A stretch of 64,000 bases of DNA from Escherichia coli (GTDB taxonomy: Bacteria > Pseudomonadota > Gammaproteobacteria > Enterobacterales > Enterobacteriaceae). Made by a program: the position numbers and the translations under genes. This document shows, piece by piece, positions 39,077 through 58,099 of this stretch (position 1 is the first letter of the stretch; the number at the start of each line of letters is the position of its first letter). The notes under the pieces are model-generated. The model was not told the DNA's origin, did not search any database, and worked only from the letters and a program-made list of their open reading frames with translations. The stretch lies in the NCBI RefSeq assembly GCF_044324875.1, contig NZ_CP172185.1. One strand, given 5' to 3'.

Positions 39077-39618
39077 AACTGCCGGTAAAACGTTATGCGG
39101 TGGCGGCCATTGTGGCGCTGGGCGTCTCCATGGCACCCGGTGAACTGAGAACCTCACGGGAAGCACAGATAAAAATCGCCACCCGGGAAGAGTGCCGGGC
39201 GACACCGTACCGTGATATTGCAGGAGTAATGACCGTGGGATGTGGTTCAACAGGGGGCGTGGAGAACCGGGTTTACGGAGAAAAGGAGGTGGCCCGCCGC
39301 TGGGTGAATGACCTGCGGCACGCGGAAAACTGTATCAACCAGAACTTCAGCGGTGCCGCCATGCCCCAGTCCGCCTTTGAGGCGATGACCGACGCGGCGT
39401 TCAACGTCGGCTGTACCGGCCTGATGTGGTACCGGGACAGGAGCGGCAACCGGCAGCGCACCACCATCTGGAAGCACGCACAGGCGCACCGCTGGGTGGC
39501 GATGTGCGGGAGACTGACCGATTTTGTCAACAGTGGCGGACGCCGCTCACAGGGGCTGGTTAACCGCCGGGAGGAGTTCAGACAGTGGTGTCTTCGCGAC
39601 ACGGGAGGCAGCACATGA
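39073..39618 (+). CDS. SAR-type endolysin (T4-lysozyme-like, GH24)
   Basis: N-terminal hydrophobic signal-anchor YAVAAIVALGVSMAPG then E...D...T region (TREECRATPYRDIAGVMTVGCG). Confidence 0.75.
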   Translation: MKLPVKRYAVAAIVALGVSMAPGELRTSREAQIKIATREECRATPYRDIAGVMTVGCGSTGGVENRVYGEKEVARRWVNDLRHAENCINQNFSGAAMPQSAFEAMTDAAFNVGCTGLMWYRDRSGNRQRTTIWKHAQAHRWVAMCGRLTDFVNSGGRRSQGLVNRREEFRQWCLRDTGGST

Positions 39619-41252: not shown

Positions 41253-41830
41253 ACGCGGAGCTTATGCGCCTTATCAGCAACATTATCAGAACCGGCGTGA
41301 TTTTCGACGTGAACCCGCAGACCTGGGAGGTCCGGGTGCGCAGTGGCGGACTGGAGACAGGCTGGCTTCGCTGGAGCACCGCGCGGGCGGGCGCGTTCAG
41401 TGTCTGGGTGCCGCCAGCCACCGGTGAACAGGTGGCGTTCGTCTGTATCGGTGGTAATCCCGAAACCGCGATAATCATCGGCAGCCTCTGGAGCGATGAT
41501 ATCCCGGCACCGGGCAGCACACTGAAGGAAATCATCATGACAGCACCGGACGGTGCGGTATTCCGCTACGATGCAGACGCCGGTGCACTGGAGGTTAAGG
41601 GGATTAAAACAGCCAGCATTCAGGCCGACACGCGCATCACCCTGGACACGCCGGAGGTGGTGTGTACCCGCAAACTTATCACCGCCACCCTGGAGGTGCA
41701 GAACGGCGGCGAGATGCGCGGCAGCATATCCCACAGCGGCGGCAGCCTGACATCCAACGGTATCACCGTTCATACGCACACCCACGGTGGCGTCAGGACG
41801 GGCCCGGGCACCACGGGAGGCCCGCAATGA
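41249..41830 (+). CDS. baseplate assembly protein V (spike)
   Basis: 193-aa ORF; P2 order. Confidence 0.8.
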   Translation: MNAELMRLISNIIRTGVIFDVNPQTWEVRVRSGGLETGWLRWSTARAGAFSVWVPPATGEQVAFVCIGGNPETAIIIGSLWSDDIPAPGSTLKEIIMTAPDGAVFRYDADAGALEVKGIKTASIQADTRITLDTPEVVCTRKLITATLEVQNGGEMRGSISHSGGSLTSNGITVHTHTHGGVRTGPGTTGGPQ

Positions 41831-43077: not shown

Positions 43078-43798
43078 CAGGAAAAAAACAGACAGCGCAC
43101 AGCACAGTACATCACTGCTTCCACCGTCCGCAGGGCCATTCATGCGCGCCACAGAGGCGACAGGAGTACGCATCAGTGCCATACCGGTGGACGCCGACAC
43201 CCTGTGGTCGCCGGACCGCTGCCCTGCTCACCTCCTGCCCTACCTTGCATGGGCATGTTCCGTTGACCGCTGGGACCGCAACTGGCCGGAAGAGACCAGA
43301 CGACAGGTGATTGGCCAGTCCTGGAAGGTACACCGCCAGAAAGGAACGGTCAGCGCACTGAGGGAAACAGCCGCAGCATTCGGTTATGAGATGACCATCA
43401 GTGAATGGTGGGAGCATGGAGGGCAGCCGGGCACCTTTACTGTGACCATCGGGGCAGACACTCAGGGCATCGGCCCTGAAACATGGCTGGAGATGGAGGA
43501 TCTGCTCAATGATGCACGTCCGGTTTCACGTCATATGACGGGGCTTTATGCCGCCCTGCGTTCTGGCGTGACGGTTTACTGCGCTGCGGGAGCAGGCTGT
43601 GATGAGCTTGTAACCATTCACCAGAAAGCTCGCGCCTCCCTGGCGGGCCAGGTGACCATCATCGCAGCAGGAGACACACACACAACCGACAGTGTGACCG
43701 TACTGCCGGGGGTTCCGTCAGGTATGTACGGGGAGATCTGTATCCGTACCGGCGCAGGTATATTCGTGAGTGAGATTGTGGAGGTTATCACCTTATGA
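43070..43798 (+). CDS. baseplate/tail protein I
   Basis: ATG 43070 with GAAGGAGG RBS, overlapping J stop. Confidence 0.75.
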   Translation: MSDRKKTDSAQHSTSLLPPSAGPFMRATEATGVRISAIPVDADTLWSPDRCPAHLLPYLAWACSVDRWDRNWPEETRRQVIGQSWKVHRQKGTVSALRETAAAFGYEMTISEWWEHGGQPGTFTVTIGADTQGIGPETWLEMEDLLNDARPVSRHMTGLYAALRSGVTVYCAAGAGCDELVTIHQKARASLAGQVTIIAAGDTHTTDSVTVLPGVPSGMYGEICIRTGAGIFVSEIVEVITL

Positions 43799-44910
43799 AC
43801 ACCGATTTTTATTCCGTTCTGACGGATGCCGGGCTGAAAAAACTGGCGGCAGCCGCAGCATCAGGGAATCAGATGAAAATCACCCATATGGCTGTAGGCG
43901 ACGGAAACGGAAAAGCCGTAACACCCGGCAGGGCCGACACCAGGCTTGTCAGGGAAAAATACCGTGCGCCACTGAACAGTCTGGAAGAAGACACAGAGAG
44001 ACCGGGGCATGTTATCGCAGAAATGGTGATACCTGAAAAACAGGGAGGGTGGTGGATCAGAGAATTCGGATTATTCGACGAAGACGGCGGAATGATTGTT
44101 ACAGGCAAATTTCCTGACACATGGAAGCCTGCACCTGGTCAGGGTGGAGCACGACTGATATCAGTGAAAGTGGTTGTGGCAGTATCACATACAGAAAACA
44201 TTGTGCTGAAAGTGGATCCTTCTGTTGTCATGGCAACCCGGGAATGGGTGAACACAAAAGCAGAGCAGTTAAAGAAAGAGCTCAGACAACCTGATGCAAC
44301 CACCAAAACAAAAGGCATTGTTCAGCTTAGCAGTGACATCAACAGCACCTCTGAAACGCAGGCTGCCACCCCCGGAGCGGTAAAAGCCGTGAATGATCGT
44401 GTGGACGGAAAACAGGACGCGGATCCCACGCTCACATCTCTGTCCGGGAAAAATGCACAGCAACTGAGGCAGCTTCTGGGGCTGGGCACGCTTGCCACCC
44501 TGAACAGGGGCACCGGTTCAGGGAATGTGCCGGACATGAGTCACTTTGCGAGTAAAAAAGCAGACTACGGTTACCAGTGTTTTCCTGGCGGCATAATGAT
44601 CCAGTGGCTGCGGATCCCCTCAGACCACACAGGAAGAGCTGTCAGTCAGGAAGCCCGGGTGGCACTAAGCGGCGTGCGACTGTTTTCAGTGGAGGGTAAC
44701 TGGAACGGTAATAACATGATTAAGACCCTGGCAAACTACCAGTGGCCGAGAGTTTTCGGGGCAATTTATGCGACCGTTGCAACCAGGAATCACGGATCTG
44801 CATGGCGAGTATATCCGGTGTCCGCGAACAAGGATGTGCGTGTCGTATCCATTGCCTGGGCGGGAGAAGGTACAGATGACACTTATGTGGTTGGGGTGGG
44901 AAGAGTATGA
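43795..44910 (+). CDS. tail fibre protein (gpH-like, short)
   Basis: 371-aa ORF after baseplate I; conserved N-terminal fibre anchor region then divergent C-terminus. Confidence 0.7.
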   Translation: MNTDFYSVLTDAGLKKLAAAAASGNQMKITHMAVGDGNGKAVTPGRADTRLVREKYRAPLNSLEEDTERPGHVIAEMVIPEKQGGWWIREFGLFDEDGGMIVTGKFPDTWKPAPGQGGARLISVKVVVAVSHTENIVLKVDPSVVMATREWVNTKAEQLKKELRQPDATTKTKGIVQLSSDINSTSETQAATPGAVKAVNDRVDGKQDADPTLTSLSGKNAQQLRQLLGLGTLATLNRGTGSGNVPDMSHFASKKADYGYQCFPGGIMIQWLRIPSDHTGRAVSQEARVALSGVRLFSVEGNWNGNNMIKTLANYQWPRVFGAIYATVATRNHGSAWRVYPVSANKDVRVVSIAWAGEGTDDTYVVGVGRV

Positions 44911-45353
44911 AAATGATGTGGTCGCCGTCTGTGGGCGGTTTTTTTGGTGAAGACAGCAGCCATATACCGGAAGATGCGGTGGAGGTTGATGAATCGATGT
45001 GGAGCAGGATGATGGAGGGACAACTTGAGGGAAAAATTATCGTTAACGGCCCTGACGACCTGCCTGTTCTGGAAGAGCGTCCGGGACCGGGGCCAGAAGA
45101 ATACCGGCATCAGGCTCGCCTTGAGCTTGCTGACCTTCGCCGACAGGGGCTGGAACACATAGAGTCGATGCGCTGGCGTGACAAAGCGGTCATGAACAGG
45201 CTGGGAGAAGAGGAGAAGCAGGAGTATAACGCCTGGCTTGACTGGCTCGACGCGCTTGACAGTACGGACATATCAGGGGCACCGGATGTGGTGTGGCCGG
45301 TGATGCCCGTCACGGTGGTTCCTGAACATCCTCAGAAAAAATTGCCGGAGTGA
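44907..45353 (+). CDS. tail fibre assembly protein (gpG/Tfa-like)
   Basis: 148-aa ORF overlapping H stop; positional. Confidence 0.6.
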   Translation: MKMMWSPSVGGFFGEDSSHIPEDAVEVDESMWSRMMEGQLEGKIIVNGPDDLPVLEERPGPGPEEYRHQARLELADLRRQGLEHIESMRWRDKAVMNRLGEEEKQEYNAWLDWLDALDSTDISGAPDVVWPVMPVTVVPEHPQKKLPE

Positions 45354-45360
45354 ACAGCCT

Positions 45361-45386
45361 CCGGCCTGAGACTGCACTCAGGCCGG
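45361..45386. terminator. GC-rich hairpin ccggcctgag-actgca-ctcaggccgg between convergent G and U
   Basis: Seen in sequence. Confidence 0.4.
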
Positions 45387-45394
45387 AAATTCTG

Positions 45395-45841
45395 TTATCT
45401 GCCAGCATTGCGGATGATACCCGAAAGCATATCAGACACCGACGGCATCATTCGCTCCCGCAAATCCTCATCACAGCGTTCCATACTGACAGTGAACTCA
45501 ATTTTTTTGGCCTTACCGTGGCGGTCAAGTTCGCTTCGCGTTGTGCGGACAGCCGTTATCACATACATGCCGTATATCTGCCCCACACCGTCAATCAGCG
45601 GCCATGGGCGGCCAGTGTAAGCCTGCGTCGTTAAAAGGCTGAGGGAAACCTCACCGCCGGTAATTTCGGGATAAAGCACACCGGACAACGTGATCTGGTC
45701 GTCACCCGCCCCGATATACTGCCAGCTGGCCGAACGATTGATGCGTTCATTTTTAACGTGGCGCCAGGTTTTATTATGTTGCAGTTGTTGATGAGGCAGC
45801 GTACGCAACTCAAAAACAAACATGCCGTAAATCATCATCAT
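45395..45841 (-). CDS. tail protein U
   Basis: 148-aa ORF immediately downstream of tape measure gene on minus strand. Confidence 0.75.
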   Translation of the reverse strand: MMMIYGMFVFELRTLPHQQLQHNKTWRHVKNERINRSASWQYIGAGDDQITLSGVLYPEITGGEVSLSLLTTQAYTGRPWPLIDGVGQIYGMYVITAVRTTRSELDRHGKAKKIEFTVSMERCDEDLRERMMPSVSDMLSGIIRNAGR

Positions 45842-45852
45842 GCGAGGTACTC

Positions 45853-48800
45853 CTAATCTCTGTCACGGAAACTACCGACTGTCTGGCGGATACGGCGTTC
45901 CATTTCCGCACGGACGGCATCACCCACCATTTTTGCCAGTTCGCGCGGGTTTTGCGTGTGAACATCATGCAGGTGAATATGCAGTTCGCCAGTTAATCCC
46001 CATGGTGCCGGATCACTCTGACGCGGTCGGGGCGATGCGGGGGATATGGGCTGGCGCACAGCCTCAACCACCGGACGGGATGTTGCCGTTACGACGGGTG
46101 TCATTACCGGCGCAATATTGCCGGACACTACCGGTTTAATTACCGGGGAGAGCGTCGGTATAACATCGCCAGCCATAACCGGTTTGATCGCTGGCGAAAT
46201 AACCGGAGCAACAGACTCAGCCATGACGGAACTGACAGGCTGAGGCGCTCTCACTATGCCAGCATCGATAACCAGCATGAGCTCGCGTACTGCCTCAAGG
46301 ACAGGACGGGATATTGCCGCCATCACTGGTGTCATTAGCGGGGAGAACGTCGGCATGACATCGTGAGTCATAACCGGTTTGATCACCGGCGAAACCACCG
46401 GCGTAATATTACCGGACAGTACCGGACGGACGACCGGAGGAATAACCGGCACATTATTCACGGACACCACCGGCTTCACGACCGGCGACACGTTCGCCGT
46501 GGTGGATATCAGCGGCGAAACACTGACAGGCGGTGGCGCTGGCAGCGGTGGCAACGAAGGCACACTGACCGACGGCACCTGCGGCAGTCTGACAGGTGGC
46601 TCACTGACACTACCCGGTAACAGGGAAGCTGCGCGGTTAAAGCGTTCCTCCTTCCACTCACCACGAACGGCCAGCGCTTCCGGCAGGTTTTTAAAGATAA
46701 TATCGCCGGGACCAGTGCGTTTTTTCGCCTGTTTCGCCTCATCCAGCAGGCCACCGGTGTTATCGACGATTTTATTCAGGCGACGCATGGTGCCGGTATT
46801 CTCCCCCGTCAGCGGAGCAGTTGCTGCAGGTGCAGGTACTGGCGGCTTTTTGTCTTTGTCATTTTGCGGCGGATTAATGACATTAACATCCGCCAGGAGC
46901 ATGGCGGCTTTCTCGTTCAGCAGCTCCTTCTGCTTCAGCTCTTCCGCCTTTTTCCGGGCGCGCTCAACCGCCGACGGAATCAGCCCGAGTTTTTCCAGCA
47001 CCCGGGTTAATGAGTCAATCAGCAGCGTAACCGGACCGGTCACCAGATTGCTGATAAACTCCCCGACCTTCTGCCCGAACGTCCGCCCGGCTTCCGTGCA
47101 CTTGTCCAGCTCATCCTTTGTTGTGCTTACCGGCGCGAACAAATCCACGAACCACTGCCACACACGCCCGATTGTCTGCCCGACATACTCAAACAATGGT
47201 CCCAGTGGTGCCACAGCCTCGCGCAGTGGCGTAAGCCCCTGCCACAGGCCGGACAAGAACCCGCCCACGACAGCCTTCAGCTGGTCCCAGTGCCGCCAGA
47301 TAAGCACTGCCGCACCGACCAGTGTCGCCACCACAAGGCCCACCGGACTTAACAGAAAACCCAGCGCCCCGCCAAGTGCGCCCACCGCACCACTCACCAT
47401 CCCCCACAGTGCGGGCAGACCTGACAGTCTGAGCGCCAGTATTCCGATACCGCGCCCCAGTGAAATCAGTGCGCCGCCAGGTGAAGTGAACGCAGCCAGC
47501 AGACCACCACGCAGCGCGCCAAGTCCCGCCTGCACACCACGAAGCCGCCCCGCAACTACGCCCAGCAGTGCAGCAAACCGTCCGGCACCGGAGGTGATAC
47601 CGACAAACAGCACGCGCCAGCCACCGATACCGCCCAGCGGACCACCGAGTACGCCGCGCAGCTGCGTCAGTAACGGCAGCGCACGACCGAGGCCGGATGT
47701 GCCGGTCAGCAGGGCAAACCCAAGACGCAGTTTTGCCAGCGGCCCCATCAACACACCAGTGGCAAGTGACAGCGCCCCCATGGCCGCAACCGCAGCCAGC
47801 AGTGCACCACCGGCAATCAGCAGTTGTTTTGTCAGTTCAGGGTGCGCCTGGGCCAGCGCGGTGACTTTCGCAATAACCCGGGTGAACGACTGCGTGACAG
47901 AACGCAGCGGCCCGTCAACGAGGTCAGCGACACGGATACGCAGCCCTTCCCATGCGCTGTTCAGTGATTTCAGGTCGCCGTCCAGGTTGTCCGCCATGAT
48001 TCTGGCGTTTTCTTCCAGTTCGCCGTTCGCTGCCTGAATCTCACGCGTCAGGCGCGGCAGGTTTTTTTCGCCTGCCTGTTCAACCAGGCTCATCAGGGAG
48101 ACATACGCCTCCTGCCCGGCAATATCTGAAAAGAACGAGACTTTTGCCGCGTTACCGTATTTACGGGTGGCCTGATACAGCTCATACAGGATATCTTCCA
48201 TCGGGCGCATGTTCCCGTAAGCATCCTGCGTTTCCACGCCCAGCTGTTTCAGCGCCTTTGCTGCCGCTTTAGGCGGGTTCACAAGGCGGGACAGACTGGA
48301 GCGCAGCGCCGTACCAGCATCACTGCCACGTATCCCCATCGACCCAAGCAACCCGGTCATGGCTGCGGTCTGTTCAAGAGACAGACCGAGTGAGGCGGCG
48401 ACCGGTCCCGTATATTTCATCGTCTCACCAAGCCCGCGCAGGTCGGTATTGGTGCGGGTGAACGTTGCGGCCAGCGTGTCACCCACGCGGTTCATCTGGT
48501 CGGCAGACAACCCGAACTGCGTAAGGATATTTGAGCTGATATCGGCCGTCTGACCGAGGTCCATGCCGCTGGCCGTTGCCAGATTCAGCACGCCGGGAAG
48601 AGCCGCCTGTATCGCCTGCGGCGTGAACCCCGCCATGGCAAGGAACGCCTGACCGCTGGCAGCATCACCTGCGGTAAACTGCGTTTCGGAGCCGAGTTTA
48701 AGCGCCTGTTCGCGCAGCGCCTTAAACTGCGGACTGTTTTTGTCAATACGGGTCAGCGCCTGGACGCGCGACATCTCCTTACCAAAACTGACCGCCGGTT

Positions 48801-49395
48801 GCAGGAAACGCCCGGCCGCATAGCCACCTGCCGCTGCCGTGCCGACTGCCGTAAATCCACCCGCTTTCAGTTTTCCCGCCATCTCCTGAGCGCGGAAATA
48901 TTGCTGGCGTGCCTGCGTGACGCGTGCCAGAGTCTGCCGTTCACGTTCCAGCTGTTCGTTGTATTGCTGTGTTCGCCGTATGGCCTGTTGAATGGTGTTG
49001 TCACTGCCGGAAAGCGCAATACCGTGACGCCGCAGCTCACCACCCAGTTCGCGCATTCGCTGAACTTCACGCGCACGGACCTCATTGAGACGCTCAAGTT
49101 TGAGGCTCAAATCGTTCATCAGCTTTTTCTGTTTGTCAGACAGCACGGTTCCGGCGCGCTGAATTTGCTGAAGTGCGCTTAACTGGCGTTGTGCCCGGGC
49201 AATGCCGTTTCCGGCCTTGTTTGCAGCCTCGCGGGCGCGATCAAATGAACGGGCGTGGCGTTCCAGGTTTTTGATCGCACCCTGCGTTCTCTGTATGGAG
49301 TCGCCAAGCTGGCCCATCATGCGACGGGCGTTTTCGGTGGGACGGGTCAGCCTGTCAACAGCGCTGAAGGCGACCCGTATATCAAGCGTTTTCAT
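45853..49395 (-). CDS. tail tape measure protein (gpT-like), start taken at MKTLDIR
   Basis: Very long Ala/Gly-rich ORF with Pro/Val-rich repeats near C-terminus; ORF track start at 49431 is a GTG. Confidence 0.85.
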   Translation of the reverse strand: MKTLDIRVAFSAVDRLTRPTENARRMMGQLGDSIQRTQGAIKNLERHARSFDRAREAANKAGNGIARAQRQLSALQQIQRAGTVLSDKQKKLMNDLSLKLERLNEVRAREVQRMRELGGELRRHGIALSGSDNTIQQAIRRTQQYNEQLERERQTLARVTQARQQYFRAQEMAGKLKAGGFTAVGTAAAGGYAAGRFLQPAVSFGKEMSRVQALTRIDKNSPQFKALREQALKLGSETQFTAGDAASGQAFLAMAGFTPQAIQAALPGVLNLATASGMDLGQTADISSNILTQFGLSADQMNRVGDTLAATFTRTNTDLRGLGETMKYTGPVAASLGLSLEQTAAMTGLLGSMGIRGSDAGTALRSSLSRLVNPPKAAAKALKQLGVETQDAYGNMRPMEDILYELYQATRKYGNAAKVSFFSDIAGQEAYVSLMSLVEQAGEKNLPRLTREIQAANGELEENARIMADNLDGDLKSLNSAWEGLRIRVADLVDGPLRSVTQSFTRVIAKVTALAQAHPELTKQLLIAGGALLAAVAAMGALSLATGVLMGPLAKLRLGFALLTGTSGLGRALPLLTQLRGVLGGPLGGIGGWRVLFVGITSGAGRFAALLGVVAGRLRGVQAGLGALRGGLLAAFTSPGGALISLGRGIGILALRLSGLPALWGMVSGAVGALGGALGFLLSPVGLVVATLVGAAVLIWRHWDQLKAVVGGFLSGLWQGLTPLREAVAPLGPLFEYVGQTIGRVWQWFVDLFAPVSTTKDELDKCTEAGRTFGQKVGEFISNLVTGPVTLLIDSLTRVLEKLGLIPSAVERARKKAEELKQKELLNEKAAMLLADVNVINPPQNDKDKKPPVPAPAATAPLTGENTGTMRRLNKIVDNTGGLLDEAKQAKKRTGPGDIIFKNLPEALAVRGEWKEERFNRAASLLPGSVSEPPVRLPQVPSVSVPSLPPLPAPPPVSVSPLISTTANVSPVVKPVVSVNNVPVIPPVVRPVLSGNITPVVSPVIKPVMTHDVMPTFSPLMTPVMAAISRPVLEAVRELMLVIDAGIVRAPQPVSSVMAESVAPVISPAIKPVMAGDVIPTLSPVIKPVVSGNIAPVMTPVVTATSRPVVEAVRQPISPASPRPRQSDPAPWGLTGELHIHLHDVHTQNPRELAKMVGDAVRAEMERRIRQTVGSFRDRD

Positions 49396-49908
49396 GCTCT
49401 GCGTTCCCGCTGCGAAGGGCCGCCCGCTCACGCCAGGCGACCACCTCGCCGGGATCCATCAGGAAGATTTCAGCGGGAGACCAGTTGAAAATAACGGCGA
49501 TATCCGCCACAAAGTCTTCAATATGCTCAAAGGGCACGACGGTTATCAGCCTGCCGTCGCCGCCACGCTCTTCCCGCCAGAGTCCTGACCGGCCAAAAAA
49601 TTAACCGCCACCCCGCACAGCTGAATAAAATCAGCGGACCCCATGCGCTTAAGCAGAACCTCGTCCAGTCGCGGCGAAGTGACGCGCGGGAGTAACTCAA
49701 ACATCGCGTCCGTTTTCATGTTCAGCACGTCAAGCAGTGACAGCCCGCGCAGTGAACCGGCCTGCTGTACAGCAGGCGTGATTTCCACATACGTGATTTT
49801 TTTGTTACCGAGCACAAGGGGCGTTTTCAGCGTCACGCCGCGCTCACTGGTCACGTCCGCCGCATCAGCACCGTCAGTAACAGGGGCAACAACCGGATTT
49901 TCTTTCAT
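49382..49908 (-). CDS. tail assembly chaperone E' (E+E' product via programmed -1 frameshift)
   Basis: Slippery heptamer T TTT TTG (minus strand; plus-strand CAAAAAA at 49594-49600); -1 frame stays open to 49382, overlapping tape measure start. Confidence 0.5.
49546..49908 (-). CDS. tail assembly chaperone E
   Basis: 120-aa ORF between tube and tape measure genes; ends shortly after slippery TTTTTTG. Confidence 0.75.
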   Translation of the reverse strand: MKENPVVAPVTDGADAADVTSERGVTLKTPLVLGNKKITYVEITPAVQQAGSLRGLSLLDVLNMKTDAMFELLPRVTSPRLDEVLLKRMGSADFIQLCGVAVNFLAGQDSGGKSVAATAG

Positions 49909-49958: not shown

Positions 49959-50477
49959 TTAACCACCAAGACCAATCGCCGAGCGCACGCGGTCCGGGAA
50001 GACGCTTTTGCCGTCCTTGCGTTCGATGTGGTTCAGTAAATCAATCTCCAGCACCGGACGGTCGTTAATGCTGAGTTTGTAGTAGGTACTTTTGACCGCA
50101 TAGGTGTGAGACGTGACCTCACCCTGTTTGGCCTCCCCGGTATCAATTTCCGTCACGCGACCGCGAAGCTCAATCTCGTACAGGTCACTCTGTTCTTCAT
50201 CGTTGTAGTACTCACCGACAAAGCGCAGCAGCGTACCGTCAATCGTTCCGCCGTACTTGAGGAACAGTTCGCGGGTCGGCCCGCCCATGGTGAAACTCGC
50301 ATCCAGCGCGCCGTCATCCAGGCCAAGGTCGATATTTACTGCACCGGCCATACCACCACCGCGATAGGCTTCCGTTTTACGGGTCAGTTTGGGGGGCGTG
50401 AAGCCGGTCACCCTGCCAATCTGGTTCACCCCGTCAGTAAACAGCGTGAACACCCTGAGATTTTTTGGTACGGCCAT
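49959..50477 (-). CDS. tail tube protein (FII)
   Basis: 172-aa ORF, start overlaps sheath gene stop. Confidence 0.85.
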   Translation of the reverse strand: MAVPKNLRVFTLFTDGVNQIGRVTGFTPPKLTRKTEAYRGGGMAGAVNIDLGLDDGALDASFTMGGPTRELFLKYGGTIDGTLLRFVGEYYNDEEQSDLYEIELRGRVTEIDTGEAKQGEVTSHTYAVKSTYYKLSINDRPVLEIDLLNHIERKDGKSVFPDRVRSAIGLGG

Positions 50478-50805
50478 TAAGCACCTCCAAGCGTCGCAAA
50501 TGCAGGACCAAAGAATTCATCAGTAAACGTCTGGTAAAGTTCCATATCCTCAAGCGGCGGAACGGGCGTGTACTTGTAGCGGATACGCACGCGTCCCTGA
50601 CGAAGTTCCGTGGTGCTGTTATCCACCACGTCATACCAGCACTCCGCACCAACGAGACGTCCTGACGTAACCAGCGCATCCAGTTTTGCGCGAATTGCGC
50701 TTAACACGTCTTTCACATTAGCAGGGGTCAGCGGGGCATCAATCGTTTCAAACTGCGCTTCCGCAACAGAATCAGCCAGCACCTGATGCAAAATGGCATC
50801 TGAAT
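50477..50805 (-). pseudogene. tail sheath (FI) C-terminal fragment, separated from N-terminal part by an IS
   Basis: Frame ...AIDSDAILHQVLADSVAEAQF...RIRYKYTPVPPLEDMELYQTFTDEFFGPAFATLGGA ends where tube gene starts; 5' boundary approximate. Confidence 0.6.
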
Positions 50806-50988
50806 CGATCGCAGTTTGGCATTCGAATCGATCATGATTTGGCATCCATCTCCGATCACAGTTTGGCATCACAATCGATCACGATTTGGCATGCTTCCGA
50901 TCATTGATTGGCATCCTGCCAGTCACTCCGGGAATTAACTCTTTTCACCACAGTCTCCATTGCCGTGTTTAAACCAGTGGAGACGTCA

Positions 50989-52554
50989 ATGTCCAGAAAG
51001 AGAAAATCCAGGAGCACTATGGAAACCTGTTTTAAGATCCTTCAGCTCAAGTTCGACAAGAAGCTGACTAACCGTTGTATCGGACTGACGTTACACATCA
51101 GCGCCTCAACCGTTTTTGAGGTTCTTGCCCGCTTCAAAGCCTCTTCTCTGTCATGGCCATTACCTGCTGATATATCCCATGACACGCTGGAGAAACTCAT
51201 TTTTCCGCCCAAAGACACCTTTGCATCAGAGCTTGTAATGCCTGACATGTTGTACTTCGATACGGAAATGAGAAAACCAGGTGTGACGCGGCAACTGTTG
51301 TGGATGGAATACAAGGCACAGGCGGGTAACAAAGCGATGGGATACTCGCACTTCTGCCGTTGCTACCGGGAGTGGAAAAAAACGCGACGTCTCTCCATGC
51401 GCCAGGAGCATCGTGCCGGCGAAAAGCTTTTTATCGACTTCTGTGGTCCTACGGTTCCTGTTATTAATCCGGACACCGGTGAGATACGCCGCGTGGCAAT
51501 CTTCGTGGCCGTAATGGGGGCGTCCAACTATACCTACGTTGAAGCGTGCGAAGGTCAGGACATGATGTCATGGTTAAATGCCCACAGCCGTTGCCTGACC
51601 TTCCTGGGCGGCGTACCGAAGCTGCTCATCCCCGATAACCTCAGAAGCGCAGTGAAAAAGGCCGATCGATATGAGCCTGTCATCAACGACAGTTATCAGG
51701 CACTGGCTGAGCACTATGGCACGGTTATCATCCCGGCCCGACCACGCAAACCTAAAGATAAACCAAAAGCAGAAAACGGCGTCCTCATCGTTGAACGATG
51801 GCTTCTTGCCCGCATCCGTAATGAAACCTTCCACACGCTCAGGGCGCTGAATGCGCGCCTTAGGGAGTTACTGACAGACATGAATAACCGGCCAATGAAG
51901 GGGTACGGCAATCAAACCCGTGCAGAACGCTTCCGCATACTGGATGCGCCAGCACTCTCTCCGCTGCCTCTGGCACCTTATGAATACACGGAATACAAAG
52001 CTGTGAAGGTTGGCCCTGACTACCACGTTGAATATGCCCGTCACTGGTACTCCGTTCCACACGAACTGGTCGGTCAGCGTCTGTCACTGAAGGCGGGGCA
52101 GTCGGTGGTACAGCTCTGGCACAAGGGGCAGTGTGTGGCGCAACATCCGCGCAGCACACATGAATATAAACACACAACCAATCCGCTTCACATGCCAGAG
52201 CGCCACCGGCAGCACGGGACATGGACACCGGAACGCCTGATCGAGCAGGGAAAACGTACGGGCCCGTCCACAGGCCGGGTGGTTGAATCCATGCTGAAGG
52301 CAAAACCCCATCCGGAACTGGCTTATCGTGCAGTTCTGGGGCTGCTGGCACTTCAGAAAAAATACGGCCCGGAACGGCTGGAAAAGGCCTGTTACGTTGC
52401 CCTGCACTATAACGCCCCTGACAGACGCTTTATCGACAATCTGCTGCGTCACCATCGGGAGAACCTGGAGCTTCCATTATCCCGCCAGGGCGAACAACAT
52501 CCGGCATATGCTTCAGAGCATGAAAACCTGCGTGGTCCGGGCTACTACCACTGA
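50989..52554 (+). CDS. istA: IS21-family transposase IstA
   Basis: N-terminal HTH, DDE-type central region; start taken at MSRKRKSRS (ATG 50989). Confidence 0.85.
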   Translation: MSRKRKSRSTMETCFKILQLKFDKKLTNRCIGLTLHISASTVFEVLARFKASSLSWPLPADISHDTLEKLIFPPKDTFASELVMPDMLYFDTEMRKPGVTRQLLWMEYKAQAGNKAMGYSHFCRCYREWKKTRRLSMRQEHRAGEKLFIDFCGPTVPVINPDTGEIRRVAIFVAVMGASNYTYVEACEGQDMMSWLNAHSRCLTFLGGVPKLLIPDNLRSAVKKADRYEPVINDSYQALAEHYGTVIIPARPRKPKDKPKAENGVLIVERWLLARIRNETFHTLRALNARLRELLTDMNNRPMKGYGNQTRAERFRILDAPALSPLPLAPYEYTEYKAVKVGPDYHVEYARHWYSVPHELVGQRLSLKAGQSVVQLWHKGQCVAQHPRSTHEYKHTTNPLHMPERHRQHGTWTPERLIEQGKRTGPSTGRVVESMLKAKPHPELAYRAVLGLLALQKKYGPERLEKACYVALHYNAPDRRFIDNLLRHHRENLELPLSRQGEQHPAYASEHENLRGPGYYH

Positions 52555-52570
52555 CAGAAGGAACAACAGT

Positions 52571-53326
52571 ATGAGTGATAACCTGTTAAACAAACTGACC
52601 CAACTGAAACTCCCGGCGATGGCCGGGAGCCTGATACGGCAGCGGGAAACGCCTCAGACCTACGACGAACTGTCGTTCGAGGAAAGGCTGACGCTGCTGG
52701 TTGATGACGAGCTTCTGAGCAGGGAAAACAGCCGTGTGGCACGGTTGAGAAAAAATGCCGGCCTGAAATACCAGGCAACACCGGAAGGGCTGCGCTATCC
52801 GGCCTCAAGAGGTCTGCGGGCTGAACAGATGAGAGAACTGCTGAACGGCCACTACATAACCCACAGGAAAAACCTGCTGATAACCGGTCCGACAGGATGT
52901 GGCAAGAGCTGGATAGCCAATGCGCTGGGCGAACAGGCATGTCGACAGAAACACAGCGTCCGGTACTGTAGAACCGGGCGATTACTGGAACAACTGGCTC
53001 AGGGACGTGTTGATGGCAGCTGGCTGAAATATCTGAAACAGTTGCAAAAAATACAGGTTCTAATCCTGGACGATCTGGGGCTGGAACAGTTAAGTAACGC
53101 CCAGTGTAATGACCTTCTGGAGCTCATAGAGGATCGTTACGGACAAAGCAGCACGATAGTGGTAAGCCAGTTCCCGGTAGATAAATGGCATGGTCTGATG
53201 GAGAACCCAACAACAGCAGATGCCATCCTGGACAGACTGGTACATAACTCACACCGAGTGGTCCTTCAGGGAGAGTCACTGAGGAAAAATCCCCCGGTAG
53301 TGGAAAGCAGCGAAAAAACGCGTTAA
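52571..53326 (+). CDS. istB: IS21-family helper ATPase IstB
   Basis: Start MSDNLLNKLTQLKLP; Walker A GPTGCGKS, Walker B ILDDLG. Confidence 0.9.
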   Translation: MSDNLLNKLTQLKLPAMAGSLIRQRETPQTYDELSFEERLTLLVDDELLSRENSRVARLRKNAGLKYQATPEGLRYPASRGLRAEQMRELLNGHYITHRKNLLITGPTGCGKSWIANALGEQACRQKHSVRYCRTGRLLEQLAQGRVDGSWLKYLKQLQKIQVLILDDLGLEQLSNAQCNDLLELIEDRYGQSSTIVVSQFPVDKWHGLMENPTTADAILDRLVHNSHRVVLQGESLRKNPPVVESSEKTR

Positions 53327-53409
53327 AAAGCGGTAGAAAAAGTTAAGTTCCCGGTTGATCGAATGGATGCGAATCGCTGATCGGACTTCGATGCCAATCC
53401 GTGATCGAA

Positions 53410-54406
53410 TAGAGCGGAATACGCACACCTGAGCGGTTCGCGTGTACACCTCAAAGATATACGCCTTCGTTTCCGGCGTACGGTTGCCCCAGAAGCGGAA
53501 ACCGTTACGGCGAATGATGGTGGTGATTTCCTTGTTGTTGAGATTGTTGGCATCGCTGTCTTCGGACTGAAGGGACCAGAACACCGGGCTGGAAATACCC
53601 AGCACATTTCTTACCGGCACGTTGGACAGCGATTTATGCCAGCCCTGTTCGTGGTCAATACGTGCACGTAAACCGCAGGCGTACGCCGCAGCCGGGAAGA
53701 CCTCATTAGCGCCGGATTTCGGGTTATGGGCGATGAAGTCAGGCCAGAGCAGCATAAGTTCGCGCTCGTTAAATCTGGCGCGGTAGCTGATTGCATCAGC
53801 GGGCTTCTTGCAGTTGTGACAGCCCGCGTAGACAAATGCGCGAAGTTTTTCTGCAATTACACACAGGGATTTTGTGACAGCTTCAGTATCCAGTCCGGGC
53901 GCTGCGATGATGCGCGGACGGTAACCGATGGCATCATCCTGTTCAGCTATCAGAAGTGCATACATACCGGTATAATTACCGTCGCCATCCGTGCCACCAA
54001 TGACATACTGGTCCTGCGTTTTGTGTGGGTATACAGGATGTGCATCTTCAGACTCATCAATACCAAAAAATGCCCTGTCTTCAGGATCCAGATGACCGAA
54101 TGATGTAACTCCTGTATCCGGGGCGCCCTGAGAACTGGCATCAGGAACGCGCACCACAATCACCTTCGTGCTCACCTGGTCGGCGACAGCCTTAAGCGAT
54201 TTGTAAAGCGTCCCCTTTGTGCCGGCCTTACCCAGCACATCACTGACGCGGGTCAGCAGTGTGGGTTTGTTCAGCGGGAACAGAGTTTCATCCGCGTCAT
54301 CTGCCGTAGCCACAATACCAATAACACTGGAATCCACATCATTAATGGCGGTGGCAAGGCCGGTACTTTCCCTTACGCGCGCACCATGAAAGCGTGTTTC
54401 ACTCAT
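53410..54406 (-). pseudogene. tail sheath (FI) N-terminal fragment interrupted by IS
   Basis: Start MSETRFHGARV at ATG 54406; frame runs into IS right end where translation becomes IS-derived. Confidence 0.65.
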
Positions 54407-56968: not shown

Positions 56969-57366
56969 TATCCAAGAACCCTGTCTGCAGCAACACGCGC
57001 CAGAAATCCAGAGCGGCTACCGTATTCAGGATGAGACTCAACGAACTGATCAATGCGACGAATAAGCAGAGATGGCAGGGTAACATTGATTTTTTCCGAT
57101 TTCCCCATCAGGCGGGACACATCCACCTCAACGAGCGCCCACACTGCATCACTGTATTCAGGATCTGATTGCCATTCATCAAGATTTGTAGCGACAGGGA
57201 TAGACTCACCAGATTCAACCAGTAATTCTACGTGTGCCTCAATGGCTTCACGGGCACTGTCTACCGCATCCTGAAAACTATCACCGCCAGAAAAACAGCC
57301 GGGCAGATCTGGGACGCGAACACCAAAAGATGAATCCCCCCGGTCAATAGCGATTGCATATAACAT
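56968..57366 (-). CDS. hicB: HicB-family antitoxin
   Basis: MLYAIAIDRGDSSFGVRVPDLPGCFSGGDSFQDAVDSAREAIEAH... typical HicB N-domain; C-terminal RHH-like tail. Confidence 0.8.
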   Translation of the reverse strand: MLYAIAIDRGDSSFGVRVPDLPGCFSGGDSFQDAVDSAREAIEAHVELLVESGESIPVATNLDEWQSDPEYSDAVWALVEVDVSRLMGKSEKINVTLPSLLIRRIDQFVESHPEYGSRSGFLARVAADRVLG

Positions 57367-57388
57367 TGAGACCTCCAGAAGGTGGGGC

Positions 57389-57568
57389 TTACAGCCCCGC
57401 CTGTTTCTTAATACTTTTTAAAGTTGGTAAAGGTATATCTTTTTGAGGGTGTTTTACCGTTACCAGCCCCTTCTTTGTCGGATGTTTGAATTGATGATGA
57501 CTCCCCTTAACCCTAACAAGATACCATCCATCCGCCTCTATCATTGCTATTGCACTTTTGCTATCCAT
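57389..57568 (-). CDS. hicA: HicA-family toxin (59 aa; absent from ORF track)
   Basis: Manual translation of minus strand: MDSKSAIAMIEADGWYLVRVKGSHHQFKHPTKKGLVTVKHPQKDIPLPTLKSIKKQAGL; 20 bp upstream of hicB. Confidence 0.75.
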   Translation of the reverse strand: MDSKSAIAMIEADGWYLVRVKGSHHQFKHPTKKGLVTVKHPQKDIPLPTLKSIKKQAGL

Positions 57569-57704
57569 CCCCCCGTACTCCGTCTTTCGTTGTTGGAGTT
57601 ATTATAACCCCAACAACTAGTCAAAGCAAGGGTTCGGAGTTATTAGAGTTATAGAATAATTGACTGCCTCCCCAAAACTGCGGCAAGAAAAAACCACTGA
57701 CCAC

Positions 57705-57799: not shown

Positions 57800-58099
57800 T
57801 TACTCGTCTTTGGGCGAAGCGTTTTCGACCCGGCTTTTTAACTTCTGCCCGGGTCTGAAGGTCACCACGCGCCGTGCTGTAATGGGAATATCCTCGCCCG
57901 TTTTCGGGTTACGTCCCGGGCGTTGATTCTTATCACGCAGATCGAAGTTACCAAAACCAGAGAGTTTCACCTGTTCGCCGTTTTCCAGAGCGCGACGGAT
58001 CTCTTCGAAAAACAGTTCAACCAGTTCTTTGGCATCCCGCTTGCTAAGCCCAAGCTTATCAAACAGATATTCTGACATTTCAGCTTTTGTAAGCGCCAT
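57800..58099 (-). CDS. ihfA: integration host factor alpha subunit
   Basis: 99-aa [57 protein letters not shown]... Confidence 0.95.

What the first reader, a model, noticed from the sequence alone, without database searches (positions are those of the whole stretch)
49382..49908. Programmed -1 frameshift site for the E/E' tail assembly chaperone pair
The E frame stops at 49546, but a slippery TTTTTTG heptamer (plus-strand CAAAAAA at 49594-49600) lies near its end and the -1 frame stays open for another ~50 codons to a stop overlapping the tape measure start. This is the conserved chaperone frameshift seen in P2 E/E' and lambda G/GT.
Basis: partly seen in the sequence, partly recalled or inferred. 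Interest (0 to 1): 0.3.

Follow-up and report, generated by a model that had tools for sequence, protein, structure and literature searches.

The report
P2-type tail chaperone frameshift site
This is an ordinary, well-understood phage feature: a slippery TTTTTTG in a P2-like prophage of E. coli where some ribosomes slip back one base, so one gene yields a short and a long tail-assembly chaperone. In this strain an insertion sequence has broken the same tail operon upstream.

Summary

- **Layout (minus strand).** A 120-codon E-like ORF runs 49908→49546. It carries an in-phase T_TTT_TTG heptamer at 49600→49594. The -1 frame opens exactly there and runs 70 codons to TGA 49384-49382, overlapping the tape-measure ATG at 49395 by 14 nt.
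- **Homology.** The -1 product matches Pfam PF06528 (Phage_P2_GpE; 48 bits, cutoff 23) and P2 E' (49% identity). The zero-frame product aligns with P2 E (35% identity, E 2e-14). The heptamer sits in the same alignment column and codon phase as P2's annotated frameshift site.
- **Comparative evidence.** In 64 distinct related sequences, third-codon-position variability switches from the E frame to the -1 frame exactly at the heptamer. All 88 analysed sequences (86 related loci, P2 and the window) keep the E-to-E' -1 relation. Each has TTTTTTG, the overlapping AAATTTT, or both.
- **Stimulators.** No conserved stimulatory RNA structure was found.
- **Context.** The site lies in a Xuanwuvirus-like (P88-like) Peduoviridae prophage in an E. 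coli chromosome.
An ISSso4-like IS21 element (50787-53425) splits the tail sheath gene upstream. The site is intact, but the tail operon is probably disabled here.

Known mechanism, new unannotated instance, low interest.

The parts
49546..49908 (-). Gene E homologue: zero-frame tail assembly chaperone, 120 aa, ATG 49908, stop TGA 49548-49546
   Evidence: ORF list and translation. BLASTP to P2 gpE gives 35% identity over 88 aa, E 2e-14. It matches phrog_103 'tail protein', E 4e-31. There is no direct Pfam PF10109 hit; relatives 72-76% identical (fusion proteins) hit PF10109 below threshold at 15-21 bits.
49594..49600 (-). Slippery heptamer T_TTT_TTG (plus-strand CAAAAAA), in X_XXY_YYZ phase of the E frame (AAT TTT TTG)
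   Evidence: Phase computed. P2 has the same heptamer in the same phase (GGT TTT TTG), and the P2 record annotates its frameshift there. The heptamer aligns at the FL/FL column of the protein alignment. It is the only in-phase heptamer in the overlap.
49601..49603 (-). TAA stop in the -1 frame directly 5' of the heptamer; upstream limit of the E' reading frame
   Evidence: Frame translations and overlap analysis. In P88-like relatives the homologous codon is GTA rather than GTT. That leaves the -1 frame open further upstream and creates a second heptamer, A_AAT_TTT.
49546..49593 (-). E/E' overlap zone: 15 E sense codons plus the E stop; both frames open
   Evidence: Variable sites concentrate on position 3 of the -1 frame (10/15, against 4/15 and 3/15 at positions 1 and 2). 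Selection therefore acts mainly on the -1 (E') frame already here. The -1 peptide LWREER is conserved in this subfamily.
49382..49594 (-). E' extension read in the -1 frame from the heptamer's last base (G 49594) to TGA 49384-49382: 70 codons. The E+E' fusion is join(49908..49594, 49594..49382), 175 aa
   Evidence: Translation. Pfam PF06528 Phage_P2_GpE gives 48.1 bits, E 7.9e-13. It matches phrog_1756, E 1e-32. BLASTP to P2 E' gives 49% identity, E 3e-16. tblastn matches 305 phage records, whose listed genera are hosts of P2-like phages.
49382..49537 (-). 51-codon GTG-started ORF that public annotation calls a separate 'GpE family phage tail protein'; here read as the distal part of E'
   Evidence: PGAP annotation in 99.6-99.9% identical E. 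coli loci. The -1-frame coding signal starts upstream of this GTG.
45853..49395 (-). Tape measure gene (T homologue), 1180 aa from ATG 49395; its start overlaps the E' stop by 14 nt
   Evidence: Pfam PF10145 PhageMin_Tail, E 3e-58. Related records show the same 14-nt overlap. GTG 49431 is an alternative upstream start in the same frame.
49959..50477 (-). Tail tube gene (FII homologue), 172 aa, immediately upstream of E
   Evidence: Pfam PF04985 Phage_tube, E 1.7e-44.
45395..45841 (-). gpU homologue downstream of the tape measure gene
   Evidence: Pfam PF06995 Phage_P2_GpU, E 6.7e-41.
50787..53425 (+). ISSso4-like IS21-family insertion sequence (istA, istB) with a 7-bp target duplication CACCTGA. 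It splits the tail sheath gene upstream of tube-E-E'-T-U
   Evidence: BLAST of intact relatives against the window. Target duplication found, and the sheath ORF is restored in silico. Copies 100% identical are annotated istA/istB elsewhere in E. coli. Sheath Pfam domains lie on both fragments.

Best explanation
This is the programmed -1 ribosomal frameshift site of the E/E' tail assembly chaperone genes of a P2-family (Peduoviridae, Xuanwuvirus/P88-like) prophage in an E. coli chromosome.

Most ribosomes translate E to its stop and make a 120-aa protein. A minority slip back one base while decoding T_TTT_TTG, with tRNA-Phe on TTT in the P site and tRNA-Leu on TTG in the A site. They continue in the -1 frame and make a 175-aa E+E' fusion (predicted junction ...AVNFL-GRSGLW...). 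Its stop overlaps the tape-measure start.

By homology with P2 E and E+E', and by analogy with lambda G/GT, the shared E part is expected to bind the tape measure. The E' domain is expected to link it to tail-tube polymerisation. The ratio of the two products would be set by slip efficiency.

Shown here: the anatomy, homology of both frames to P2 E and E', identity and position of the heptamer, and purifying selection switching to the -1 frame at the heptamer. Inferred: that slippage actually occurs, its efficiency (probably low, since no stimulator was found), and the chaperone roles.

In this strain the operon is interrupted upstream by an IS21-family element. The site is intact but probably idle.
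For: - **Anatomy:**
- **-1 product:** Pfam PF06528 at 48 bits against a cutoff of 23; 49% identical to P2 E'.
- **E part:** homologous to P2 gpE, E 2e-14. P2 gpE is itself a PF10109 tail-assembly-chaperone member.
- **Full fusion:** aligns to P2 E+E' across the junction, E 1e-27.
- **P2 record:** annotates a -1 frameshift at the same heptamer and phase.
- **Literature:** PMC3931495 summarises Christie et al. 2002. P2 E' lacks a ribosome-binding site, extends back into E in the -1 frame, and is reached through the T6G sequence. The arrangement is conserved among P2-like phages.
- **Relatives:** all 88 analysed sequences (86 related loci, P2 and the window) keep the E-to-E' -1 relation and at least one in-phase heptamer at the homologous place.
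- **Codon-position variability:** 77% at E-frame position 3 upstream of the heptamer; 67% (overlap) and 46% (E'-only) at -1-frame position 3 downstream.
- **Context:** tube, tape measure, gpU, sheath, gpD, P2-type capsid, terminase, gpA and integrase are all present.
Against: - No protein or ribosome data exist for this locus.
- The E part does not reach the Pfam PF10109 threshold directly.
- No downstream RNA structure or upstream SD-like stimulator is supported (single-sequence fold z = -0.79; alignment fold has a positive covariation term and broken pairs).
- U_UUU_UUG is not among the most efficient E. coli motifs listed in PMC4066793, so efficiency may be low.
- The internal GTG at 49537 has an SD-like match (-5.7 kcal/mol) little weaker than the one before E (-6.3). 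Separate initiation cannot be excluded on that criterion.
- The sheath gene upstream is split by an IS, so expression in this strain is doubtful.
Confidence: 0.93

Rival explanations
1. There is no frameshift. The 51-codon ORF starting at GTG 49537 is translated on its own as a small 'GpE family' protein, as NCBI's pipeline annotates it in near-identical E. coli prophages.
For: PGAP lists separate CDSs (363 nt and 156 nt) and no joined CDS in the 99.6-99.9% identical loci. P88 and Chuche are annotated the same way. The 20 nt before the GTG pair with the anti-SD at -5.7 kcal/mol, close to the E start's -6.3.
Against: - The -1-frame coding signature and the conserved -1 peptide LWREER begin at the heptamer, 57 nt upstream of the GTG.
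- The changes seen there (CGG to CGC, GAG to GAA) are synonymous in the -1 frame and non-synonymous in the E frame.
- The SD-like match is poorly spaced, about 11 nt from the GTG, and 17% of all positions score as well.
- In P2, the homologous E' lacks a ribosome-binding site and is made by frameshifting (PMC3931495 citing Christie 2002; P2 record).
- Every relative keeps an in-phase slippery heptamer.
Confidence: 0.04
2. The two products arise from RNA polymerase slippage on the T6 run, which would give mRNAs with one base more or fewer, rather than from ribosomal slippage.
For: The site is a homopolymeric run of six T. Transcriptional slippage is a known alternative route to frame changes (PMC5009743).
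Against: - From established knowledge, productive transcriptional slippage in bacteria generally needs longer runs, about 8-9 or more A/T.
- About half the relatives have AAATTTTATG, where the T run is only four but the X_XXY_YYZ heptamer A_AAT_TTT is kept. That pattern fits tRNA re-pairing rather than run length.
Confidence: 0.02
3. The signal is a recent relic in this strain. It is intact, but it no longer contributes to tail assembly because the operon is broken. This qualifies the present-day function and does not compete with the identification.
For: A 2639-bp IS21-family element with a 7-bp target duplication splits the sheath gene, the first gene of the sheath-tube-E-T-U block. Related loci carry an intact 427-aa sheath. 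None of 5,426 complete E. coli genomes has this junction.
Against: The E/E' region is 99.6-99.9% identical to copies in prophages with an intact sheath and has no lesions. Read-through or outward transcription from the IS could still express the downstream genes. Precise excision would restore the sheath ORF.
Confidence: 0.6

Closest known systems
Bacteriophage P2 genes E and E+E' (FETUD tail operon; Christie et al. 2002, J Bacteriol 184:6522)
   Same: - Homologous proteins in both frames: 35% identity (E) and 49% identity (E').
- Identical T_TTT_TTG heptamer in the same codon phase and alignment column.
- -1 direction.
- Position between the tube (FII) and tape measure (T) genes.
- The E' stop overlaps the T start.
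   Different: - E is longer: 120 against 91 aa, with an 18-residue N-terminal extension.
- The slip site lies 15 codons before the E stop, against 6 in P2.
- The E' linker is 10 residues longer and carries a subfamily-specific LWREER motif.
- The -1 frame opens exactly at the heptamer, against 9 nt upstream in P2.
- The E part falls below Pfam PF10109 detection.
Xuanwuvirus (P88-like) phages and prophages: P88, 500465-2, Chuche, Shae_phiSM
   Same: These are the closest relatives, with 77-79% nucleotide identity over the E/E' region. They have the same gene order, including the divergently oriented D/ogr, and the same E-to-E' -1 arrangement.
   Different: They have GTA AAT TTT TTG (two overlapping heptamers, A_AAT_TTT and T_TTT_TTG) or GTA AAT TTT ATG (A_AAT_TTT only). 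The window lineage has GTT AAT TTT TTG, which keeps only the P2-type heptamer and places a -1-frame TAA directly before it.
Phage lambda G/GT tail assembly chaperones (Levin, Hendrix & Casjens 1993; Xu, Hendrix & Duda 2004, 2013, 2014)
   Same: Same logic and position. A -1 slip occurs near the end of the gene between the major tail tube gene and the tape measure gene, giving a short and a long chaperone. The G:GT ratio of about 30:1 matters for assembly (PMC5009743; lambda record).
   Different: There is no detectable sequence similarity (best BLASTP E 9.5). The heptamer differs (G_GGA_AAG). The T extension is much longer (GT 279 aa). Lambda has a non-contractile tail.
Stenotrophomonas phage Smp131 and Xanthomonas P2-like prophages (T7G / T7C sites)
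   Same: [quoted passage not shown]
   Different: Different run length and last base (T7G, T7C). Distant hosts. Not compared at sequence level here.

Membership tests
P2-type E/E' programmed -1 frameshift (Peduoviridae tail assembly chaperones) | Two overlapping ORFs between the tail tube gene and the tape measure gene, the second in the -1 frame | tested here: met
   Tube PF04985, tape measure PF10145 and gpU PF06995 flank the pair. Frames computed.
P2-type E/E' programmed -1 frameshift (Peduoviridae tail assembly chaperones) | In-phase X_XXY_YYZ slippery heptamer (T6G in P2) inside the overlap, near the 3' end of E | tested here: met
   T_TTT_TTG at 49600-49594, phase 2. It is the only in-phase heptamer in the overlap. 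It is identical to P2's heptamer and aligned with it.
P2-type E/E' programmed -1 frameshift (Peduoviridae tail assembly chaperones) | -1 frame product belongs to the GpE/E' family (Pfam PF06528) | tested here: met
   48.1 bits against a cutoff of 23, E 7.9e-13. 49% identity to P2 E'. All 8 aligned fusion proteins hit PF06528.
P2-type E/E' programmed -1 frameshift (Peduoviridae tail assembly chaperones) | Zero-frame product homologous to P2 gpE | tested here: met
   BLASTP 35% identity over 88 aa, E 2e-14, ending at the shared FL of the slip site.
Pfam PF10109 Phage_TAC_7 (tail assembly chaperones E, 41, 14) | Protein scores above the family's gathering threshold (25 bits) | tested here: not met
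   The window's E gives no hit even at E up to 10. Close relatives score 15.5-20.6 bits over the full profile. P2 gpE scores 47.8 bits. The window's E is a divergent branch linked only through P2 gpE and these sub-threshold relatives.
P2-type E/E' programmed -1 frameshift (Peduoviridae tail assembly chaperones) | E' frame under purifying selection from the slip site onward, not only from an internal start | tested here: met
   Variable sites sit at position 3 of the -1 frame in 10/15 overlap codons and 25/54 E'-only codons. Upstream of the heptamer they sit at E-frame position 3 in 63/82 codons.
P2-type E/E' programmed -1 frameshift (Peduoviridae tail assembly chaperones) | E' has no ribosome-binding site or start of its own | tested here: inconclusive
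   GTG 49537 exists and has a weak, poorly spaced SD-like match (-5.7 kcal/mol). 17% of positions score as well, and the E start scores -6.3.
P2-type E/E' programmed -1 frameshift (Peduoviridae tail assembly chaperones) | Both E and the E+E' fusion are actually made, and both are needed for tail assembly | not testable with these tools
   This needs protein detection and genetics. Only the P2 precedent is available (PMC3931495).
Lambda G/GT family | Sequence homology to lambda gpG / gpGT | tested here: not met
   BLASTP of E+E' against reconstructed lambda GT: best E 9.5. The two are functional analogues only.
Stimulated -1 PRF (dnaX / IS3 type) | Conserved downstream hairpin or pseudoknot, or upstream SD-like stimulator | tested here: not met
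   Single-sequence fold z = -0.79. The alignment fold has a covariation term of +1.55, with many pairs broken in the window's own sequence. The G-rich stretch upstream is not conserved in relatives.

The most novel reading that the evidence does not exclude
In this group of Xuanwuvirus-like prophages the slip site itself turns over. Relatives carry A_AAT_TTT_TTG (two overlapping heptamers) or A_AAT_TTT_ATG (only the upstream one, a motif class reported as efficient in E. coli). The window lineage has a single zero-frame-synonymous GTA-to-GTT change. That change destroys the upstream heptamer and places a -1-frame TAA against the remaining P2-type T_TTT_TTG. If the three configurations give different E:E+E' ratios, they would be a natural allelic series for how much frameshifting contractile-tail assembly tolerates.
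Probability: 0.25. Interest if true: 0.3.

Novelty: new member of a known kind. Interest (0 to 1): 0.1.

Why it matters
The main value is for annotation. Public records of this prophage lineage, and of P88-like phages, list a 'hypothetical' or 'tail' protein plus a separate 51-aa 'GpE family' protein. They should list E and a ribosomal-slippage E+E' fusion. Recognising the site gives the correct proteome (120 aa and 175 aa) and marks the tail module as P2-type.

The variation in heptamer among relatives is a small natural experiment on slip-site choice. The IS insertion shows that this copy of the prophage is probably tail-defective. Nothing here changes current understanding of frameshifting or tail assembly.

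Tried and rejected
- **NCBIfam:** scan of E, E' and the fusion gave no hits.
- **PDB sequence and profile searches:** no relative with a solved structure. The only hit was a chance match to lactate dehydrogenase, E 0.34.
- **AlphaFold2:** prediction of the 175-aa fusion with an 8-sequence alignment gave mean pLDDT 43.9 and pTM 0.25. That is too poor to use, so no fold search was run.
- **Downstream stimulatory RNA structure:** not supported, by single-sequence fold or by alignment fold.
- **Shine-Dalgarno scoring:** did not discriminate frameshift from internal initiation.
- **Plasmid collection:** no match.
- **Christie et al. 2002:** not held in the library under its DOI or PMC id. Its content is cited second-hand from PMC3931495.
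- **First viral-contig scan:** a single-protein query gave only 2 loci. The alignment-based scan gave 80.
- **Other in-phase heptamers with long -1 extensions:** the pattern scan flagged 41800-41809, 57848-57854, 53312-53318 and 39268-39274. The first runs into the overlapping downstream gene (GPW/gp25 homologue by synteny with L004). The third lies at the IS/sheath junction. The other two were not followed up. None has homology support.
- **Heavy protein-database searches:** deliberately not run, because the identification was already decisive.
Full report
**1. Observation**

All features below are on the minus strand.

- The region reads ...GTG GCG GTT AAT TTT TTG GCC GGT CAG ... GCA GGC TGA.
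- The ORF from ATG 49908 to TGA 49548-49546 encodes 120 aa.
- Plus-strand CAAAAAA at 49594-49600 is minus-strand TTTTTTG. It is in the X_XXY_YYZ phase of that ORF (offset 308 from the ATG, 308 mod 3 = 2) and lies 15 codons before the stop.
- In the -1 frame a TAA (49603-49601) sits directly before the heptamer. The frame then stays open for 70 codons to TGA 49384-49382.
- The tape-measure ATG at 49395 overlaps this end by 14 nt. Annotated relatives show the same overlap.

The bare pattern is not rare. Six sites in 5 of 187 ORFs of at least 80 aa in the window show an in-phase XXXYYYZ in the last 30 codons with a -1 extension of at least 40 codons. TTTTTTG occurs 29 times on the two strands. 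The case therefore rests on homology and comparative evidence.

**2. What it is**

Protein-level evidence:

- The 70-aa -1 product matches Pfam PF06528 (Phage_P2_GpE) at 48.1 bits against a cutoff of 23, E 7.9e-13.
- It also matches PHROG tail families phrog_1756 and phrog_6416.
- It is 49% identical to P2 E' over 41 aa, E 3e-16.
- By tblastn it finds 305 phage records, whose listed organisms (Klebsiella, Burkholderia, Escherichia, Yersinia, Salmonella, Peduovirus) are the hosts and genera of P2-like phages.
- The zero-frame protein is 35% identical to P2 gpE over 88 aa, E 2e-14. That alignment ends at the shared Phe-Leu encoded by the heptamer.
- The conceptual 175-aa fusion aligns with P2 E+E' across the junction, E 1e-27.
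- The P2 record annotates a -1 translational frameshift at GGT TTT TTG, the same heptamer in the same phase.

Neighbouring genes are P2-type: tube (PF04985), tape measure (PF10145), gpU (PF06995), sheath, gpD, P2 capsid, terminase, portal, gpA and integrase.

The element is a prophage spanning roughly 20.6-57 kb of the window, in an E. coli chromosome next to ihfA and pheST. Its closest phages are Xuanwuvirus (P88-like) members at 77-79% nucleotide identity. Copies covering at least 80% of the 701-nt query, at 95% identity or more, occur in 29 of 5,426 complete E. coli genomes.

**3. Comparative test**

I analysed 88 sequences: 86 related loci (phage records, E. coli chromosomes, IMG/VR contigs), P2 itself and the window.

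- The E' frame is -1 relative to the 3' part of E in all of them. Two loci (L009, L010) have extra indels earlier in E.
- Each has an in-phase heptamer at the homologous place.
- Three configurations occur. GTT/GGT-type T_TTT_TTG is found in the window lineage and P2. GTA AAT TTT TTG carries two overlapping heptamers (about 38 loci). GTA AAT TTT ATG carries A_AAT_TTT only (about 41 loci).

I then aligned 64 distinct sequences of the region and scored which codon positions vary.

| Segment | Frame | Variable at pos 1 | pos 2 | pos 3 |
|---|---|---|---|---|
| Upstream of heptamer | E frame | 35% | 24% | 77% |
| Overlap (after heptamer, E frame still open) | -1 frame | 27% | 20% | 67% |
| E'-only segment | -1 frame | 23% | 11% | 46% |

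The differences seen in the conserved GACTCTGGCGGGAAGA block are synonymous in the -1 frame (Arg CGG to CGC, Glu GAG to GAA) and non-synonymous in the E frame. The -1 frame is therefore translated from the heptamer onward, not merely from the GTG at 49537 that public annotation uses.

**4. Mechanism**

Shown:

- An in-phase P2-type heptamer.
- A -1 frame that can be entered only there, because TAA lies immediately upstream and the E stop lies 48 nt downstream.
- Homology of both products to P2 E and E'.
- Selection on the -1 frame starting at the site.

Inferred from the P2 and lambda precedents:

- A fraction of ribosomes with tRNA-Phe (TTT) in the P site and tRNA-Leu (TTG) in the A site re-pair one base back.
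- This gives E (120 aa) and E+E' (175 aa, junction ...NFL-GRSGLW...).
- Both act as tail assembly chaperones on the tape measure.
- Their ratio is fixed by slip efficiency. For lambda, G:GT is about 30:1 (PMC5009743).

No stimulator was found:

- The fold of the downstream 111 nt is unremarkable (z = -0.79).
- The alignment fold has a positive covariation term, and its pairs are broken in the window's own sequence.
- No conserved SD-like element lies upstream.

PMC4066793 lists H_HH.U_UU.Y motifs, which include A_AAU_UUU, among the most efficient in E. coli, but not U_UUU_UUG. Low-level shifting is therefore the expectation for this locus.

**5. Rivals**

- **Independent initiation at GTG 49537.** This is what PGAP annotates. 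It is contradicted by the upstream -1-frame coding signal and by the P2 precedent. The SD test was inconclusive.
- **Transcriptional slippage.** This is unlikely for a T6 run. It also fits poorly with relatives that keep a heptamer but only four Ts.
- **Idle in this strain.** This is a qualifier rather than a rival. An ISSso4-like IS21 element (50787-53425, 7-bp duplication CACCTGA) splits the sheath gene upstream. Removing it in silico restores the 427-aa sheath found intact in relatives. No complete E. coli genome in the collection has this junction.

**6. Comparison and membership**

The site meets the sequence-testable defining features of the P2 E/E' frameshift. Two exceptions are reported as such:

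- The E part does not reach Pfam PF10109 directly. Relatives score 15-21 bits and P2 gpE scores 47.8 bits.
- The absence of a separate E' start could not be settled.

It works like lambda G/GT but is not a sequence relative of it.

**7. Verdict**

This is a correct call of a textbook recoding signal, in a prophage lineage where public annotation does not join the frames. It is a new member of a known kind and of low interest. The modest points of note are the heptamer turnover among relatives and the IS-disrupted operon.

Noticed in passing
window 50787-53425 (+); target duplications 50780-50786 and 53426-53432: A 2639-bp ISSso4-like IS21-family element (istA, istB; ends TG...CA; 7-bp duplication CACCTGA) is inserted in the tail sheath gene. 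The sheath N-terminal part is about 53433-54406 and the C-terminal part 50477-50786, both on the minus strand. In-silico excision restores the ORF. The junction is absent from 5,426 complete E. coli genomes, while 100% identical IS copies occur elsewhere.
   Followed up: yes
window 45853-49395 (-); L004 9570-13127: The tape measure ORF is intact (1180 aa) and much longer than in P2 or P88. Its C-terminal half has a proline/valine-rich, loosely repetitive character, although no tandem DNA repeat was found. PGAP marks the homologous gene as an incomplete pseudogene in near-identical E. coli loci, even though the ORF is uninterrupted in L004. This is probably an annotation artefact.
   Followed up: partly
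related loci L002-L087, region homologous to window 49594-49603: The slip site varies among relatives: AAATTTTTTG (two overlapping in-phase heptamers), AAATTTTATG (A_AAT_TTT only), and TAATTTTTTG in the window lineage (T_TTT_TTG only, with a -1-frame TAA created by a synonymous GTA-to-GTT change).
   Followed up: partly
L009 1-700 and L010 1150-1900: Two IMG/VR relatives have an extra frame change inside the E gene. The N-terminal and C-terminal parts of E lie in different frames. These are either decaying prophages or assembly errors. The E-to-E' -1 relation is still kept.
   Followed up: partly
window 43359-45417: The tail fibre and fibre-assembly genes (371 aa and 148 aa, plus strand) are not shared with the otherwise 98% identical locus L004, which has a 670-aa fibre. 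The host-range module appears to have been exchanged.
   Followed up: no
window 49395-49431 (-): The tape measure frame is also open from GTG 49431, 12 codons upstream of the ATG used in annotated relatives. That GTG has a stronger SD-like match (GAGGTGG, -8.1 kcal/mol) than the ATG (-4.3). The true start is uncertain.
   Followed up: partly
window about 57000-57700: A HicA/HicB toxin-antitoxin pair lies between the prophage end and ihfA/pheST, according to the annotation of matching E. coli chromosomes. It is present in only some genomes.
   Followed up: no
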